Source: a virus (Duplodnaviria > Heunggongvirae > Uroviricota > Caudoviricetes). Taken from it: 4,449 nucleotides of DNA. Where the stretch lies: the IMG/VR virus record IMGVR_UViG_2703718797_000011; one strand, given 5' to 3'. Below, one piece after another: positions 1-4,449 of this stretch. How positions within the stretch are numbered: the stretch's first letter is position 1; every line of letters starts with the position of its first letter. The notes under the pieces were generated by a model, which saw only the letters and a program-made list of their open reading frames with translations, was not told where the DNA came from and did no database searches. Position numbers and translations under genes: made by a program.

Positions 1-564
1 GTTGACTGGTCATTTCCTGTACTGGTGGAAGATGTGGTGATGATGGGCCGCTATGGGCATATGGGTATGTTGCGTATCGCCAAAAAGAGGGATCGTCAAA
101 TTGTCACCGATGCGCTGGAACGTGTCGATATGGTGAATTTTCGCCATCGACAAATCGGCGAGCTTTCCGGTGGACAAAAGAAACGCGTCTTTCTGGCGAG
201 AGCGATTGCACAGCAGGGTGATGTGATCCTGCTGGATGAACCTTTTACTGGCGTTGATGTGAAAACCGAAGCCAAAATCATCAGCCTGTTGAGGGAGTTA
301 CGCGCGGAAGGCAAAACGATGCTTGTCTCAACGCACAATCTCGGATCCGTCACGACATTTTGCGATTATACGGTCATGGTCAAAGGCACCGTCCTGGCAA
401 GCGGGCCGACAGACACCACTTTTACAGCCGAGAACCTGGAGCTGGCTTTTAGCGGCGTACTGCGCCATGTCACACTTAACGGCTCGGAAGAAAGCATTAT
501 TACTGACGATGAACGCCCTTTTGTGGCTCATCGACCGTCAGCGGTGCAGAGGGAAGAAAGATGA
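1..564 (+). CDS. sitB: Metal (Mn2+/Fe2+) ABC transporter ATP-binding subunit, SitB/YfeB-type; 5'-truncated by the window edge (C-terminal ~187 codons present)
   Basis: The frame of track ORF 25..564 stays open back to base 1, so the GTG at 25 is not the real start and the gene begins upstream of the window. The translation carries the ABC signature LSGGQ, Walker B/D-loop [11 protein letters not shown] and H-loop STHN; Walker A is absent, as expected for a C-terminal fragment. The stop overlaps the next gene's ATG (ATGA at 561-564). The symbol is inferred from the two-permease operon architecture and phage-associated context; yfeB-type naming is equally possible. Confidence 0.85.
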
Positions 565-1418
565 ACGTGCTACTGGAACCCTTCAGCTATGAATATATGC
601 TCAATGCGATGTGGGTCTCGGCGATGGTCGGCGGTCTCTGCGCTTTCCTGTCATGCTATCTGATGCTAAAAGGCTGGTCGCTGATTGGCGATGCGTTGTC
701 GCACTCTATTGTCCCGGGTGTTGCGGGGGCATATATGCTGGGGCTTCCGTTTTCTCTGGGAGCCTTCTTTTCCGGCGGACTGGCTGCGGGCAGCATGCTG
801 TTTCTTAACCAACGCACCCGCTTAAAAGAAGATGCCATCATCGGTCTGATCTTCTCGTCCTTTTTTGGCCTGGGGCTGTTTATGGTGTCATTGAACCCGA
901 CATCTGTGAACATTCAGACCATCGTCCTGGGCAATATTCTGGCAATCGATCCGGCGGATATCCTGCAACTCACTATCATTGGCATTCTCTCGATCATCGT
1001 GCTTTTTTTCAAATGGAAAGATCTTATGGTGACCTTTTTCGACGAGAATCACGCCCGTGCTATTGGATTGCATCCGGGCAGATTAAAACTCCTCTTCTTC
1101 ACCCTGCTGTCGGTTTCGACCGTTGCGGCGCTGCAAACGGTTGGTGCCTTTCTGGTGATCTGTCTGGTGGTGACTCCCGGTGCAACAGCATGGTTGTTAA
1201 CCGATCGTTTTCCCCGCCTGCTCATGATTGCTGTAACTATTGGCAGTGTAACCAGTTTCCTCGGCGCGTGGGTCAGTTACTTTCTGGACGGCGCGACAGG
1301 TGGAATCATCGTGGTGGCGCAGACACTGCTGTTTCTTTTAGCATTTGTCTTTGCGCCCACCCATGGGCTTTTGGCAAATCGTCGGCGTGCGCATAAGGCG
1401 CTGGAGGATCGCTCATGA
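561..1418 (+). CDS. sitC: Metal ABC transporter permease, ABC-3 family (SitC/YfeC-type), 285 aa
   Basis: 285-aa strongly hydrophobic ORF with multiple predicted TM helices and the conserved ABC-3 permease motif [11 protein letters not shown]. The ATG overlaps the upstream ATPase stop (translational coupling), with a purine-rich SD-like stretch (GGGAAGAAAG) directly upstream. It is followed by a paralogous second permease, as in sitCD/yfeCD operons. Confidence 0.85.
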
Positions 1419-2272
1419 TGGCATTATTACTGGAGCCACTGCAGTTCACCTTTATGAGTCACGCACTGCTGATTTCACTGGTAGTTTCCATACCCTGTGC
1501 GCTGCTGTCGGTCTTTCTGGTCCTGAAAGGTTGGGCACTGATGGGTGACGCGATGAGTCATGCGGTTTTTCCTGGCATCGTGCTTGCCTGGATTCTGGGG
1601 TTACCTTTGGCTACAGGGGCATTCGTCGCCGGAGTATTCTGCGCGGTGGCGACGGGATACCTGAAAGACAACAGCCGAATCAAGCAAGATACAGTGATGG
1701 GGATTGTTTTTTCTGGCATGTTTGCCGCAGGTCTGATTTTGTATATTGCAGTCAAACCAGACGTACATCTTGACCATATTCTTTTCGGCGACATGCTCGG
1801 GATAACCATCGGCGATATAATCCAGACGATGATTATTGCCGGGCTGGTTACACTTGTTATTAGCGTAAAATGGCGGGATTTTTTGCTGTTCAGCTTTGAT
1901 TATCAACAGGCGCAGGTAAGCGGTTTGCATACGAGATGGCTGCATTATGGGCTGCTGTGCATGGTCTCTCTGACCATTGTGGCGACGCTGAAAGCGGTAG
2001 GTATCATTCTCTCCATTTCTCTGCTCATTGCGCCTGGCGCCATTGCGGTACTCCTGACACAACGCTTTCATATTGCGCTCCTACTGGCGACTGGCATATC
2101 GGTAATAGTGTCAATGACTGGTGTCTGGTTGTCCTTTTTTATCGACAGCGCACCAGCTCCGACGATTGTCGTCTTATTCGCGGTTTTGTTCATCATGACG
2201 TTTGCCGTTACCAGCATCAACGCACGCAAAAAGGGAAACTCCCATACACAGGATCTGTTATCACCCAATTAG
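1415..2272 (+). CDS. sitD: Metal ABC transporter permease, ABC-3 family (SitD/YfeD-type), 285 aa
   Basis: 285-aa hydrophobic ORF, paralogous to the preceding permease, with the equivalent motif GDAMSHAVFPG. The ATG overlaps the sitC stop (ATGA) and a GGAGG SD sits about 8 nt upstream. It is the last gene of the + strand operon, with a TAG stop at 2270-2272. Confidence 0.85.
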   Translation: MMALLLEPLQFTFMSHALLISLVVSIPCALLSVFLVLKGWALMGDAMSHAVFPGIVLAWILGLPLATGAFVAGVFCAVATGYLKDNSRIKQDTVMGIVFSGMFAAGLILYIAVKPDVHLDHILFGDMLGITIGDIIQTMIIAGLVTLVISVKWRDFLLFSFDYQQAQVSGLHTRWLHYGLLCMVSLTIVATLKAVGIILSISLLIAPGAIAVLLTQRFHIALLLATGISVIVSMTGVWLSFFIDSAPAPTIVVLFAVLFIMTFAVTSINARKKGNSHTQDLLSPN

Positions 2273-2319
2273 CACAACATCCGAGGACAGCAACACCCGA
2301 TACTTTTTCCTGGCTTCCA

Positions 2320-2344
2320 GCAACGGGGTTTCTTCCTCCGTTGC
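2320..2344. other. Inverted repeat / stem-loop (7-bp stem GCAACGG...CCGTTGC, 11-nt loop) in the convergent intergenic region
   Basis: Read directly from the sequence between the sitD stop (2272) and the stop of the minus-strand 70-aa ORF (2364). There is no adjacent U-tract on either strand, so it is not a canonical intrinsic terminator; it may be a weak bidirectional terminator or an RNA-stabilising hairpin. Confidence 0.3.
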
Positions 2345-2363
2345 ATATACAGCTCACCTTTTT

Positions 2364-2576
2364 TCAACGCGGATCAAAACCGCCCCACCACGGCATATTC
2401 ATTCGCTTGCCATGCCCGAACATTTCAATCCAGCGATATTCTGCCTGGGTATGTTCACGCGCAATGAAGAACGTACAACCGGCTATCGCTCCGTAAGCCC
2501 AGTTTCCGGTAAAAAGACCAACCAGTATCTGCGCAGCCACAGCACAAAGTGCATGAAGTAAGGGGCTTATATCCAT
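2364..2576 (-). CDS. Hypothetical small membrane protein (70 aa): two predicted hydrophobic helices plus an aromatic/basic C-terminal tail; family not recognised
   Basis: The ATG is preceded by a canonical AGGAGG Shine-Dalgarno with a ~5-nt spacer. The N-terminal ~40 residues are hydrophobic (PLLHALCAVAAQILVGLF, WAYGAIAGCTFFI) and the C-terminus is Trp/Arg/Lys/His-rich (RWIEMFGHGKRMNMPWWGGFDPR). It starts 12 nt downstream of the 92-aa ORF stop on the same strand. GC is about 50 percent, unlike the AT-rich genes upstream of it. Confidence 0.6.
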   Translation of the reverse strand: MDISPLLHALCAVAAQILVGLFTGNWAYGAIAGCTFFIAREHTQAEYRWIEMFGHGKRMNMPWWGGFDPR

Positions 2577-2588
2577 TATTTCCTCCTT
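2577..2588 (-). promoter_or_regulatory. Shine-Dalgarno (AGGAGG) for the 70-aa ORF, located in the 12-nt spacer after the 92-aa ORF stop
   Basis: Plus strand shows CCTCCT at about 2582-2587, i.e. AGGAGG on the minus strand, about 5 nt upstream of the ATG at 2576-2574. It lies immediately after the TGA of the 92-aa ORF (2591-2589). Confidence 0.6.
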
Positions 2589-2867
2589 TCAGCTCCATTC
2601 CCGAAGCGGTGTTTCCAGCTCCACGACATAATCAGAGAATACAGAAACATCAAACAAGTCATCAAGAATGCGAATGTTGACAAAATAACCATCATTCCGG
2701 ATACAGACAGGTTCTCCCTCTTCTGTTACCCCTGTTTCTGTGTAGGTGAAACCAATTTCATCAACTAACAGTTTATTCTGGAGGTCTTCATCTTCCGCCC
2801 AGCCAAGAGATGACAGGAAGGCCTTAAACTGCAGTTTGTCATGAAACTTCAAAGTTAAATCTTTCAT
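2589..2867 (-). CDS. Hypothetical small, strongly acidic protein (92 aa); family not recognised
   Basis: ATG with an AAGAGG SD-like sequence about 5 nt upstream. The start overlaps the stop of the upstream 220-aa ORF (ATGA at 2864-2867). About 20 Asp/Glu against about 9 Lys/Arg/His, including a DEDEDL patch, with no hydrophobic segment. AT-rich (about 40 percent GC) yet open for 92 codons. Confidence 0.6.
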   Translation of the reverse strand: MKDLTLKFHDKLQFKAFLSSLGWAEDEDLQNKLLVDEIGFTYTETGVTEEGEPVCIRNDGYFVNIRILDDLFDVSVFSDYVVELETPLREWS

Positions 2868-3526
2868 ACGACCTCTTTTAATTGCCTGTCATTTAATTCT
2901 TTATGCCATATGCGGAAATTGCGAATATGGCCAAACAGATGTCGTTCTCCAGTATTCGTCTGCCCTCCAAATCGGATATTTTTATCAGCGGTCACGCCAT
3001 TATATTCACAATAAACTTCATTAACCGCTTTACCATTTGTCACCACATGAAAGTGACCATCAGCTTTTGCAATACATCCAAATGTGGTTTTCTCTGCAAA
3101 TACATCTGTCGCTGCGCTATTAACATACGAGCCTGAAGGGTTTGACAGACTCATATATAACTTACCACTACCTCTGTTGATTGCTGCAATTGCTGATTGC
3201 CCGGTATTGGCTGCTGCTATATCCCACACGCGGGGTGCGGCGTTTGGTGCAATATCCCAGTTTTTATGAATCTCAAGTAAAAAAGTAAATGGTAACTTAT
3301 AAAGATTATTTCTGGTGGGGATACTAACCAAATCACTGGCTCTTGTCGTTGCGCTGCCTCCTGAAATAATAAATGATGATACACACGGCCCATTCTCTAC
3401 TTGTGGGGTGGCAAGATAAATATAGTCACCAGATACTGTTGCCCCACCCTGCAATAATTTCAAGCGTTTGCGTATCAATGTACGCATCGCCAAGAAAAGT
3501 TGTTGCACTACCATCATACTTATCAA
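2864..3526 (-). CDS. Hypothetical protein (up to 220 aa) with a putative ConA-like/LamG-type jelly-roll C-terminal domain; start codon uncertain; alternatively a frameshifted distal extension of the tail fiber
   Basis: A 220-codon open frame in roughly 42 percent GC DNA is unlikely by chance. The C-terminal motif NIRFGGQTNTGERHLFGHIRNFRIWHKELNDRQLKEV resembles the terminal strands of LamG/Laminin_G_3-type lectin domains (compare F-x-G-x-I-D-E-V-R-I-Y-x-x-A-L-S-x-x-E-I). The track start at 3526 is a TTG; in-frame ATGs lie at codons 4, 5 and 14, all inside the tail fiber coding region and none with an SD. Downstream of the tail fiber stop there is no ATG until about codon 125. The stop overlaps the ATG of the 92-aa ORF. 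Confidence 0.5.
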   Translation of the reverse strand: MISMMVVQQLFLAMRTLIRKRLKLLQGGATVSGDYIYLATPQVENGPCVSSFIISGGSATTRASDLVSIPTRNNLYKLPFTFLLEIHKNWDIAPNAAPRVWDIAAANTGQSAIAAINRGSGKLYMSLSNPSGSYVNSAATDVFAEKTTFGCIAKADGHFHVVTNGKAVNEVYCEYNGVTADKNIRFGGQTNTGERHLFGHIRNFRIWHKELNDRQLKEVV

Positions 3527-4449
3527 ACCGTATACGTAACCTTACCTGTCGTTCTGTTTTAAAACGGCATGAGGTTGTCACGTACTTGTTATCGCCTGAG
3601 ACATCAACTGACTTTGTTGCAGCAATTGATGCCATATTAATAGCCGAAGTTTGCCCAACCAGAGAATCGTTGCAGACAAACTTTCCATAAGTAAAACCAA
3701 AACTATCCGTCCCGGTTTCGGGCACATCCATGTTTGATGACTTCCCCCAGCTGGCTGGACTTTCCGAATTGAGCATGTAGTTCGTTCTTTGTCCCTCAAT
3801 AAGCAGGCCATCACACTCAAATCGCGGCTCATTAATTTCCGCCGTTTTCAGTTCGCCAGATTTGTTGATATATGTTGCCGTTGATGCGCGACTGAAATTA
3901 ACCTGTTTATCACTGGCGACCTGAACCACATCGTCACCAATAGCTATTTTTTTATAGCCCGGAGAAAAACCCGCAATCATATCCAGTGAATCGTTAAACG
4001 GTATCCACACATCAGGCAGCGGCGGCACTATATTCGCACAGGGCTCTGCAGTCACTTCCGCTGCGGCTTCTGCGCGGTCTGCCGCCTTTTCAGCTCGTGT
4101 CGCTGCCGACAGAGCCTCATCCTTTTTCTGCCCGGCCTTTGTTGCGTCTGCTGCGGCCTCCCGCGCTTTTGTGGTGGCGACTCCGGCATTTTCAGCGGCT
4201 GACTCTGCATTACGGCGGGAAGCCTCTTCACTGTCTGCGGAGGCTTCTTCTGACGCACGGGCATTTGTCTCTGAACGTTCTGCCGCTGTTGCTGCGTTTT
4301 GTGCGGCTGTTTTTGAAGAAGCTGCCGCTTTCGCGCTGTTACCTGCATTCGTCTCTGATGTTTTCGCCGCGTTCCTGGACGATGCCGCTGCTGTTTCTGA
4401 TTTCTTTGCTGCCGCTGCGCTCTGAGAGGCGGCTTCAGCGTTGCGTGCC
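3426..4449 (-). CDS. Phage side tail fiber protein (lambda Stf-like), 5'-truncated by the window edge; C-terminal ~340 codons present
   Basis: The frame of track ORF 3426..4055 remains open upstream of its GTG to the window end. The upstream part translates to an Ala/Ser/Thr/Glu-rich repeat tract (e.g. AAKTSETNAGNSAKAAASSKTAAQNAATAAERSETNARASEEA) that resembles the repeat shaft of lambda Stf-type tail fibers. The distal ~209 aa (TAEPCANIVPPLPDVWIPFNDSL ... EIIAGWGNSIW) is non-repetitive and AT-rich. The track reports only 3426..4055 because the repeat tract lacks ATG/GTG/TTG codons. Confidence 0.8.
   Translation of the reverse strand, partial: ARNAEAASQSAAAAKKSETAAASSRNAAKTSETNAGNSAKAAASSKTAAQNAATAAERSETNARASEEASADSEEASRRNAESAAENAGVATTKAREAAADATKAGQKKDEALSAATRAEKAADRAEAAAEVTAEPCANIVPPLPDVWIPFNDSLDMIAGFSPGYKKIAIGDDVVQVASDKQVNFSRASTATYINKSGELKTAEINEPRFECDGLLIEGQRTNYMLNSESPASWGKSSNMDVPETGTDSFGFTYGKFVCNDSLVGQTSAINMASIAATKSVDVSGDNKYVTTSCRFKTERQVRLRIRFDKYDGSATTFLGDAYIDTQTLEIIAGWGNSIW
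4056..4449 (-). repeat. Ala-rich low-complexity tandem repeat tract, coding (tail fiber shaft repeats)
   Basis: GC-rich GCN-dominated codon periodicity. Degenerate repeating peptide units (KTSETNA, SETNARASEEA, AEKAADRAEAAAE). The other frames give spurious Gln/Arg/Lys-rich and Ala/Phe-rich ORFs (track ORFs 4052..4348 - and 4171..4425 +). Confidence 0.6.

What the first reader, a model, noticed from the sequence alone, without database searches (positions are those of the whole stretch)
2589..2867. 92-aa strongly acidic protein immediately downstream of a putative binding domain: immunity, chaperone or DNA-mimic-like candidate
Net charge is strongly negative (about 20 D/E in 92 residues, with a DEDEDL patch) and there is no hydrophobic segment. 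Small acidic proteins in phage accessory regions are often anti-restriction or anti-defence DNA mimics, immunity proteins paired with an upstream effector, or dedicated chaperones. The ATGA coupling to the upstream 220-aa ORF suggests a 1:1 functional partnership.
Basis: inference. Interest (0 to 1): 0.55.

Follow-up and report, generated by a model that had tools for sequence, protein, structure and literature searches.

The report
Acidic partner of lectin-tipped tail fibres
The 92-residue acidic protein is a real, conserved phage gene that always sits directly behind side or lateral tail-fibre genes ending in a sugar-binding lectin domain, so it is most likely that fibre's dedicated assembly helper or cap and not a DNA mimic or immunity protein; its function has never been tested.

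Summary
The ORF (2589-2867, minus strand) is real. It has 92 aa, 10 D and 10 E, pI 4.2, no hydrophobic segment, and an ATGA overlap with the upstream frame. It is identical to phage Perceval PERCE_23 and 97% identical to phage 21 CPT_21_23.

It is the C-terminal remnant of the ~688-aa side tail fibre (Stf), split here by a 137-bp frameshifting deletion.

The small protein belongs to phrog_1361 (function unknown). It has no Pfam or NCBIfam match and no PDB relative, and its confident AF2 model (pLDDT 90) has no meaningful fold match.

Homologues occur in lambdoid, T1-like, T5-like, Queuovirinae, Dhillonvirus and rV5-like phages, Aeromonas phage and Cupriavidus prophages. In all 14 annotated phages, all 81 viral contigs and most of the prophage loci found by motif scan, the gene directly follows a fibre ORF ending in a ConA/LamG lectin domain, usually with overlapping stop and start codons.

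The family is always acidic. It is far more conserved than the lectin body and tracks the fibre's conserved last ~25 residues.

Best reading: a trans-acting assembly chaperone or cap for lectin-tipped fibres, a new family in a known functional class. This is inferred from context only. Anti-defence and immunity readings are not supported.

The parts
2589..2867 (-). Intact 92-aa acidic protein gene (phrog_1361; equals Perceval PERCE_23 and phage 21 CPT_21_23)
   Evidence: ORF and translation. Composition and pI. Identity to Perceval and phage 21. phrog_1361 at E 3e-42. AF2 pLDDT 90.3. dN/dS about 0.2.
2864..2867 (-). ATGA stop/start overlap between the stf reading frame and the 92-aa gene (translational coupling)
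   Evidence: Sequence read directly. The same 4-nt or 1-nt overlap occurs in 81 of 81 viral contigs and in most of the annotated phages; a few have a gap of up to ~46 nt instead.
2872..2875 (-). GAGG Shine-Dalgarno, 4 nt before the ATG, lying inside the stf 3' end
   Evidence: Sequence read directly. A ribosome-binding site is annotated at the equivalent place in phage 21.
2864..3452 (-). 3' part of the side tail fibre gene in its native frame: the C-terminal ConA/LamG-like lectin domain, ending HLFGHIRNFRIWHKELNDRQLKEVV
3453..4449 (-). Upstream part of the same stf gene (Ala-rich shaft and the start of the distal module). It runs off the window and is out of frame with the 3' part because of a 137-bp deletion at 3452/3453
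   Evidence: Translation compared with Perceval Stf. Deletion mapped. The junction is absent from 5,426 complete E. coli genomes.
2364..2576 (-). Next gene downstream: a two-TM membrane protein (phrog_1443), 97 aa in Perceval and phage 21. Here it is 70 aa, having lost its 3' end through an 81-bp deletion at 2366/2367. It is not a universal neighbour of the family
   Evidence: In other phages the next gene is instead a second fibre.

Best explanation
The 92-aa protein is a dedicated accessory factor of side or lateral tail fibres whose C-terminus is a ConA/LamG-type lectin domain.

Proposed mechanism (inferred):
- It is made late, by termination-reinitiation at the stf stop codon, so roughly in step with the fibre.
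- It is acidic and cytoplasmic, and binds the conserved, basic last ~25 residues of the fibre (final beta-strand plus short helix, ...H-I-R-N-F-R-I-W-H-x-x-L-x-D-x-Q...) and not the variable sugar-binding surface.
- This helps the fibre tip fold or trimerise, or it transiently caps the tip.
- It therefore plays in trans the role that Tfa, gp38 or DUF4376 proteins play for other fibres, and that the Peptidase_S74 intramolecular chaperone plays in cis.

In this particular window the fibre partner is frameshifted, so the gene may be idle.

Shown here: gene reality, the strict fibre-lectin linkage, conserved acidity, the conservation pattern, and the lack of any known homologue.
Inferred: physical binding, and the chaperone or cap activity.
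For: 1. Linkage. All 14 annotated phages examined place the gene directly after a fibre whose last ~430 aa are homologous to Perceval Stf 258-688. They span lambdoid Perceval and phage 21, Seuratvirus VogelGryff, Nonagvirus JenP2 and BRET, Dhillonvirus 'rolling', Tequintavirus T5_ev219, fp01 and IrisVonRoten, Vequintavirus 'nimi', Drexlerviridae phiE31-2 and 'tonn', and an Aeromonas myovirus.
2. All 81 IMG/VR loci show the same arrangement with a 1-nt stop/start overlap or, in the one distant locus, a 1-nt gap. So do prophages of Leclercia, Atlantibacter and Silvania, and several Cupriavidus and Burkholderiaceae prophages.
3. In the phage database the small protein hits 191 records and the lectin domain 205. 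The genus breakdown is nearly identical and the coordinates abut. Three records picked as possible counter-examples all carry the gene.
4. Where a second fibre follows, it carries its own Peptidase_S74 intramolecular chaperone. The lectin-tipped fibre has none, which leaves the small protein in the chaperone slot. In the Aeromonas phage, a fibre gene followed by a small 'tail fibers protein' gene precedes the lectin fibre + small protein pair.
5. Acidity is a family trait: pI 4.05-4.8, net charge -5 to -20. The fibre's last 200 aa have a median pI of 9.3 and its last 30 aa a median charge of +4.7.
6. In the 80-locus clade the small protein is 88% identical on average and the fibre's last 25 aa 79%, but the lectin body only 38%.
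7. The model is a compact alpha/beta domain at pLDDT 90. Its near-invariant C-terminal P-x-R-x-W motif lies in an unstructured, lower-confidence tail, typical of a partner-binding motif.
8. No minus-strand promoter or terminator separates it from stf.
9. There is precedent for fibre + cognate chaperone moving as one module between unrelated phage families (PMC10579305).
Against:
- There is no sequence or fold similarity to any known fibre chaperone.
- ConA/LamG domains usually fold on their own.
- The published model of the homologous IrisVonRoten fibre (Gp22 with Gp24) is described without mentioning the small Gp23 (PMC11990801).
- Adjacency and co-inheritance would also be expected of a stable virion component, or of a gene that simply hitch-hikes with the recombining fibre cassette.
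- Linkage was unclear or absent in a few loci from the motif scan: Aeromonas veronii, Methylorubrum and two or three of the Cupriavidus loci.
Confidence: 0.55

Rival explanations
1. It is a stable structural part of the fibre, not a transient helper. It would be a small cap or adaptor that stays bound at the fibre tip in the virion, regulating the lectin domains or forming the seat on which a second, distal fibre docks in branched fibres.
For: In T5-like, Queuovirinae, some Drexlerviridae and the uncultured clade, the gene lies between a proximal lectin-bearing fibre and a second fibre whose N-terminus is conserved (72% over 67 aa between T5_ev219 and VogelGryff). The BASEL authors annotated the IrisVonRoten homologue bas32_0023 as 'tail fiber protein'. 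Some chaperones, such as Mu Tfa, stay on the fibre (cited in PMC10579305).
Against: Phage 21, Perceval, mEp460 and Dhillonvirus 'rolling' have the gene but no annotated second fibre behind it, so docking a distal fibre cannot be the general role. T-shaped fibres are described as attaching to a proximal fibre encoded by the adjacent gene in AnnaHegner (Gp9 and Gp10; PMC11990801), though whether Gp9 carries a lectin domain was not checked. No virion proteomics was found.
Confidence: 0.25
2. It is an anti-restriction or anti-defence DNA mimic, an Ocr/ArdA-like acidic decoy.
For: The protein is small and strongly acidic, pI 4.2. That is the only supporting feature.
Against: - It is translationally coupled to the last late structural gene, with no promoter of its own, whereas mimics act early.
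- It is strictly tied to one fibre domain in 14 of 14 phages, 81 of 81 contigs and about 8 of 12 prophage loci.
- It has no Pfam, NCBIfam or PDB match to Ocr, ArdA or other mimics.
- It is a 92-residue globular alpha/beta domain, not an elongated charge-patterned dimer.
Confidence: 0.03
3. It is an immunity or superinfection-exclusion protein paired with an upstream effector or receptor-binding domain.
Against: - The upstream product is a tail fibre with a lectin fold, not a toxin.
- The protein has no signal peptide or TM segment, so it cannot reach the surface receptor.
- It is conserved in virulent phages that never form lysogens.
- The membrane-protein neighbour is not conserved with it.
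Confidence: 0.02
4. It has some other role, or none, and is carried along with the fibre cassette. For example, it could be a conserved flank that serves mainly as a recombination handle for swapping the variable lectin domain, or a regulator of downstream gene expression.
For: In the 80-locus clade the variable lectin body (38% identity) is bracketed by conserved sequence: the last 25 aa of the fibre (79%) and the small gene (88%). This is the pattern expected for cassette exchange by homologous recombination.
Against: dN/dS of about 0.2 shows selection on the protein itself. The fold is confidently predicted. Protein-level motifs are conserved at 30% identity, from enterobacterial phages to Cupriavidus prophages.
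Confidence: 0.12

Closest known systems
Lambda Tfa, Mu Tfa and P2 G tail fibre assembly proteins (Pfam Caudo_TAP)
   Same: The gene lies directly downstream of the side tail fibre gene in the same late operon. It co-inherits with the fibre's C-terminal region. Its presumed partner is the fibre tip.
   Different: No sequence match (Pfam scan of the protein and of 30 family members) and no fold match. It is about half the size. The partner fibre ends in a ConA/LamG lectin domain and not a gp37-like tip.
Alteromonas phage V22 gp27 and A5 gp9 fibre chaperones (DUF4376), the 'transient caps' of PMC10579305
   Same: The fibre and its downstream chaperone are exchanged as one module among unrelated phage morphotypes. 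The proposed roles are folding help and/or temporary capping.
   Different: Those proteins are about 195 aa, alpha-helical with a beta-hairpin, and resemble intramolecular chaperones. This one is a 92-aa alpha/beta domain with no such resemblance.
Peptidase_S74 intramolecular chaperone domains (T5 pb1, K1F endosialidase)
   Same: It occupies the equivalent functional slot. In loci with two fibres, the second fibre has an S74 domain in cis, while the lectin-tipped fibre has this protein in trans.
   Different: It is a separate polypeptide, with no S74 match and no protease motif.
IrisVonRoten (Bas32) Gp22-Gp23-Gp24 lateral fibre locus (PMC11990801)
   Same: Gp23 (bas32_0023) is a true homologue, with E 3.5e-37 against the family profile. 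Gp22 is the lectin ('galectin-like')-tipped proximal fibre, homologous to Stf here.
   Different: That locus has a distal T-shaped fibre, Gp24, which phage 21 and Perceval lack. The paper does not assign any role to Gp23.
Acidic DNA-mimic anti-restriction proteins (T7 Ocr, ArdA)
   Same: Small and strongly acidic.
   Different: Different genome position and timing, different fold, no homology, and an obligate link to a structural gene.

Membership tests
phrog_1361 (phage protein family of unknown function) | Full-length match to the family profile | tested here: met
   E 3.2e-42, residues 1-91 on profile positions 1-91 of 92. All 30 diverse relatives also match.
Tail fibre assembly proteins, Caudo_TAP (lambda Tfa, Mu Tfa, P2 G) | Sequence match to the Pfam/NCBIfam models | tested here: not met
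   No hit at E<=1 for the protein. No Pfam hit at E<=0.01 for any of 30 family members.
Tail fibre assembly proteins, Caudo_TAP (lambda Tfa, Mu Tfa, P2 G) | Gene directly downstream of, and co-inherited with, the fibre's C-terminal receptor-binding region | tested here: met
   14 of 14 annotated phages, 81 of 81 viral contigs and about 8 of 12 prophage loci.
Tail fibre assembly proteins, Caudo_TAP (lambda Tfa, Mu Tfa, P2 G) | Needed for folding or trimerisation of the fibre, and binds its tip | not testable with these tools
   Needs co-expression or genetics.
DUF4376-type fibre chaperones and Peptidase_S74 intramolecular chaperones | Sequence or fold resemblance to the helical chaperone body with beta-hairpin | tested here: not met
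DNA-mimic anti-restriction proteins (Ocr, ArdA) | Homology or fold similarity to known mimics | tested here: not met
   Searches find none.
DNA-mimic anti-restriction proteins (Ocr, ArdA) | Early or independent expression, and distribution independent of structural genes | tested here: not met
   Coupled to the last late structural gene, with no minus-strand promoter. Occurs only behind lectin-tipped fibres.
DNA-mimic anti-restriction proteins (Ocr, ArdA) | Surface charge pattern imitating B-DNA, and inhibition of restriction enzymes | not testable with these tools
Needs electrostatics and assays.
Toxin-immunity pairs (e.g. CdiA-CT/CdiI) | Adjacent toxin or effector domain | tested here: not met
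ConA-like lectin / Laminin_G_3 domain (the partner, Stf C-terminus) | Profile match and beta-sandwich fold | tested here: met

The most novel reading that the evidence does not exclude
The family is a previously unrecognised, structurally new class of trans-acting fibre factor specific to lectin-tipped fibres. An acidic cap would clamp the conserved basic C-terminal strand of the ConA-like domain. It would either nucleate assembly or keep the sugar-binding tips masked until release, and in branched fibres it would organise the junction with the distal fibre. If so, it would be a required and portable co-factor for engineering or swapping this very common coliphage receptor-binding module.
Probability: 0.2. 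Interest if true: 0.55.

Novelty: new variant of a known kind. Interest (0 to 1): 0.35.

Why it matters
Lectin-tipped side and lateral fibres are common. The module was found in about 200 of 50,697 phage records, spanning lambdoid, T1-like, T5-like, Queuovirinae, Dhillonvirus and rV5-like coliphages, and the lectin-domain junction query matched about 580 of 5,426 complete E. coli genomes. These fibres are thought to target O-antigen and other surface glycans.

Phage host-range engineering and recombinant receptor-binding-protein work routinely fail when a cognate chaperone is left out. If this 92-aa protein is that chaperone or cap, it must travel with the lectin domain in any fibre swap. That would also explain why it is conserved while the lectin surface diversifies.

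It would add a new, non-homologous family to the short list of fibre assembly factors. For the window itself the result is modest: a known 'hypothetical' gene of phage 21 and Perceval, sitting beside a broken fibre gene.

Tried and rejected
No interface evidence could therefore be obtained.
I used single proteins and a degenerate motif pattern instead.
4. I considered that the T5-like loci were the LtfA/LtfB branched fibres of DT57C. This is rejected: both of those fibres end in autocleaving S74 chaperone domains, and no small intervening ORF is described between them (PMC4728585, PMC10713586).
5. Long proteins in the exhaustive search (P0073, P0092, P0097, P0108, P0112; 590-1,677 aa) looked like possible natural fusions. 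They are TPR or PKD-like repeat proteins, so false positives.
6. The only sequence hit in the PDB, Tetrahymena telomerase p19 at E 0.0095, is treated as noise.
7. Literature searches for phage 21 stf/sit, chimeric Stf chaperones, and LamG fibre chaperones found nothing on this protein.
8. I checked whether lectin-tipped fibres exist without the small gene. Three candidate records all had it.

Full report
**What the window is.** The window matches the tail-fibre/accessory end of lambdoid coliphages. The right-hand 2.25 kb is 100% identical to phage Perceval (the LF82 prophage) and 99.2% identical to classical phage 21, and the whole window is 99.9% identical to many E. coli chromosomes. On the plus strand lie sitB (partial), sitC and sitD. 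Converging on them on the minus strand are the side tail fibre gene stf (running off the right end), the 92-aa ORF, and a small membrane-protein gene.

**Observation.** The ORF at 2589-2867 (minus strand) encodes 92 aa with 10 D and 10 E against 5 K and 3 R. Its net charge is -12 and its pI 4.17, and it has no hydrophobic segment (maximum 19-residue hydropathy 0.83). The acidic patch is AEDEDL. Its ATG overlaps the upstream stop as ATGA, and a GAGG lies 4 nt upstream.

It is a real gene:
- It is identical to Perceval PERCE_23 and 96.7% identical to phage 21 CPT_21_23.
- Full-length relatives at 28-55% identity keep both termini.
- dN/dS is about 0.21 in a clade of 70 sequences and 0.27 against phage 21.

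**Correction to the neighbour.** It and the ORF listed at 3426-4055 both match one ~790-aa tail-protein family, phrog_1419, at profile positions 597-793 and 351-550. In Perceval and phage 21 they form a single 688/686-aa Stf. Compared with Perceval, the window differs only by two deletions: 137 bp at 3452/3453, which frameshifts stf, and 81 bp at 2366/2367, which removes the 3' end of the 97-aa membrane-protein gene. No complete E. coli genome in the collection has the 137-bp junction. The fibre partner therefore appears broken in this window, while the 92-aa gene is intact.

**What the protein is not.**
- It has no Pfam or NCBIfam match, and none of 30 diverse relatives has a Pfam match either.
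- It belongs to phrog_1361, function unknown.
- A profile search of PDB sequences finds only noise.
- AlphaFold2 gives a confident compact alpha/beta domain (pLDDT 90.3). The order is strand, two helices, four strands, a short helix, then a lower-confidence C-terminal tail.
- BFVD returns only uncharacterised phage proteins.

**Distribution.** The word-indexed search finds 47 proteins, and those that carry a source name are from E. coli or Shigella. The exhaustive profile search of 1.84 billion representatives finds 78 clusters. Several of the long hits are repeat-protein false positives (five of the nine were inspected). The rest are 85-150-aa proteins sharing M-[KR]-D-x-x-L-[KR]-F at the N-terminus, a central G-[YW]-[HF]-V-N-[LIV]-R, and a terminal P-x-R-x-W-[AS].

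**The decisive pattern: context.**
- In every annotated phage examined, the gene directly follows a tail-fibre gene, with a 4-nt or 1-nt overlap or a short gap of at most ~46 nt. The phages were Perceval, phage 21, VogelGryff (Seuratvirus), JenP2 and BRET (Nonagvirus), 'rolling' (Dhillonvirus), T5_ev219, fp01 and IrisVonRoten (Tequintavirus), 'nimi' (Vequintavirus), phiE31-2 and 'tonn' (Drexlerviridae), and Aeromonas myovirus 14AhydR10PP. Phage 4A7 is an exception, described below.
- BLASTP shows these fibres differ at their N-termini, which fit each phage's own tail. They share the C-terminal ~430 residues of Perceval Stf (258-688), ending ...HLFGH[IV]RNFR[IV]WH.x.L[TN]D.Q....
- All 81 IMG/VR loci recovered with two distant family members have the same layout: a 500-620-aa ORF ending in that motif, with its stop codon overlapping the small gene's ATG or, in the one distant locus, ending 1 nt before it.
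- A degenerate-motif scan of 185,579 species genomes found 14 further loci, 12 of which encode a family member. Those in Leclercia, Atlantibacter and Silvania, and three of the Cupriavidus/Burkholderiaceae prophages, have an upstream ORF ending in the canonical LamG_3 terminal motif. A few loci were unclear or lacked it: Aeromonas veronii, Methylorubrum and two or three Cupriavidus.
- In the phage database the small protein hits 191 records and the Stf lectin domain 205. The genus breakdown is nearly the same and the coordinates abut.
- Three records chosen as possible "domain without small gene" cases all carry a family member, at E 8e-34 to 9e-25.

**Clues to mechanism.**
1. Acidity is conserved across the family (pI 4.05-4.8, net charge -5 to -20). 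The fibre's last 200 residues are mostly basic (median pI 9.3), and its last 30 residues have a median charge of +4.7.
2. In the 80-locus clade the small protein averages 88% identity and the fibre's last 25 residues 79%, while the body of the lectin domain averages 38%, and there is no correlation between the small protein and the body. The small protein therefore tracks the conserved terminal strand and helix, not the variable sugar-binding surface. It is not the specificity determinant.
3. Where a second fibre gene follows (T5-like, Queuovirinae, some Drexlerviridae, the uncultured clade), that fibre carries its own Peptidase_S74 intramolecular chaperone and the lectin-tipped fibre has none. 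In the Aeromonas phage, a fibre gene followed by a small 'tail fibers protein' gene precedes the lectin fibre + small protein pair.
4. No minus-strand promoter or terminator lies between stf and the gene.
5. The near-invariant C-terminal P-x-R-x-W motif lies in the unstructured tail of the model, as expected of a binding motif.
6. A fibre and its cognate chaperone moving as one module between unrelated phage families has precedent (PMC10579305).

**Novelty and verdict.** The gene is already in databases as 'hypothetical protein' or phrog_1361, so the sequence is not new. What is new is the recognition that it forms an obligate, portable pair with ConA/LamG-tipped fibres across at least six phage lineages and several bacterial genera, and that it is unrelated in sequence and fold to known fibre chaperones. 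I rate it a new variant of a known kind (fibre accessory factor), of moderate interest to receptor-binding-protein specialists and phage engineers, and ordinary for the window as such.

Noticed in passing
window 3452/3453 and 2366/2367: Relative to phage Perceval, which is otherwise 100% identical over 2200-4449, the window lacks 137 bp inside stf (a frameshift) and 81 bp at the 3' end of the 97-aa membrane-protein gene. The 137-bp junction is absent from all 5,426 complete E. coli genomes searched, so the deletions may be strain-specific decay or an assembly or processing artefact.
   Followed up: partly
window 25-2272 (+): sitB (partial), sitC and sitD, an iron/manganese ABC transporter, are carried as cargo between the tail-fibre module and the integrase end in Perceval, phage 21 and many lambdoid phages. 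They converge on the fibre operon.
   Followed up: no
window 2364-2576 (-): A two-TM membrane protein (phrog_1443, unknown function; 97 aa in phage 21, where it is annotated with a 29-aa signal sequence and two TMDs) follows the 92-aa gene behind a strong AGGAGG ribosome-binding site. It accompanies the family only in the lambdoid phages.
   Followed up: partly
L010-L089 (IMG/VR loci), upstream ORF about 2200-4001: Within one clade the lectin-domain body falls into several unrelated sequence classes (mean 38% identity), while the last 25 aa and the downstream small gene stay 79-88% identical. This looks like cassette exchange of the receptor-binding surface between conserved flanks.
   Followed up: partly
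L011 5515-6840 (-): An ApeA-like gene (ApeA_NTD1 + HEPN_Apea, an abortive-infection-type defence protein) lies just downstream of the fibre module on a viral contig.
   Followed up: no
L092 (phage 4A7) 2417-4833: Three 'mobile element protein' ORFs, an IS element, separate a truncated stf from the small gene in phage 4A7 and related lambda hybrids. This is another way this fibre module gets broken.
   Followed up: no
L091 (IrisVonRoten) 5001-5279; PMC11990801: The BASEL paper calls the proximal fibre Gp22 in a figure legend and Gp23 in the text. Gp23 is in fact the 92-aa family member, annotated 'tail fiber protein' in GenBank, and its role is never addressed.
   Followed up: yes
phage database hits: Records labelled 'Campylobacter phage' (C2, C11-C15) and 'Listeria phage LM 4-x' carry coliphage-type fibre modules nearly identical to rV5-like or T5-like E. 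coli phages. They are probably mislabelled or contaminated records.
   Followed up: no
window 3426-4449 (-): the ORF listing reports a 209-aa ORF starting at GTG 4055, but that frame stays open to the window edge (341 codons). The Ala-rich shaft and the distal module are one continuous reading frame.
   Followed up: yes
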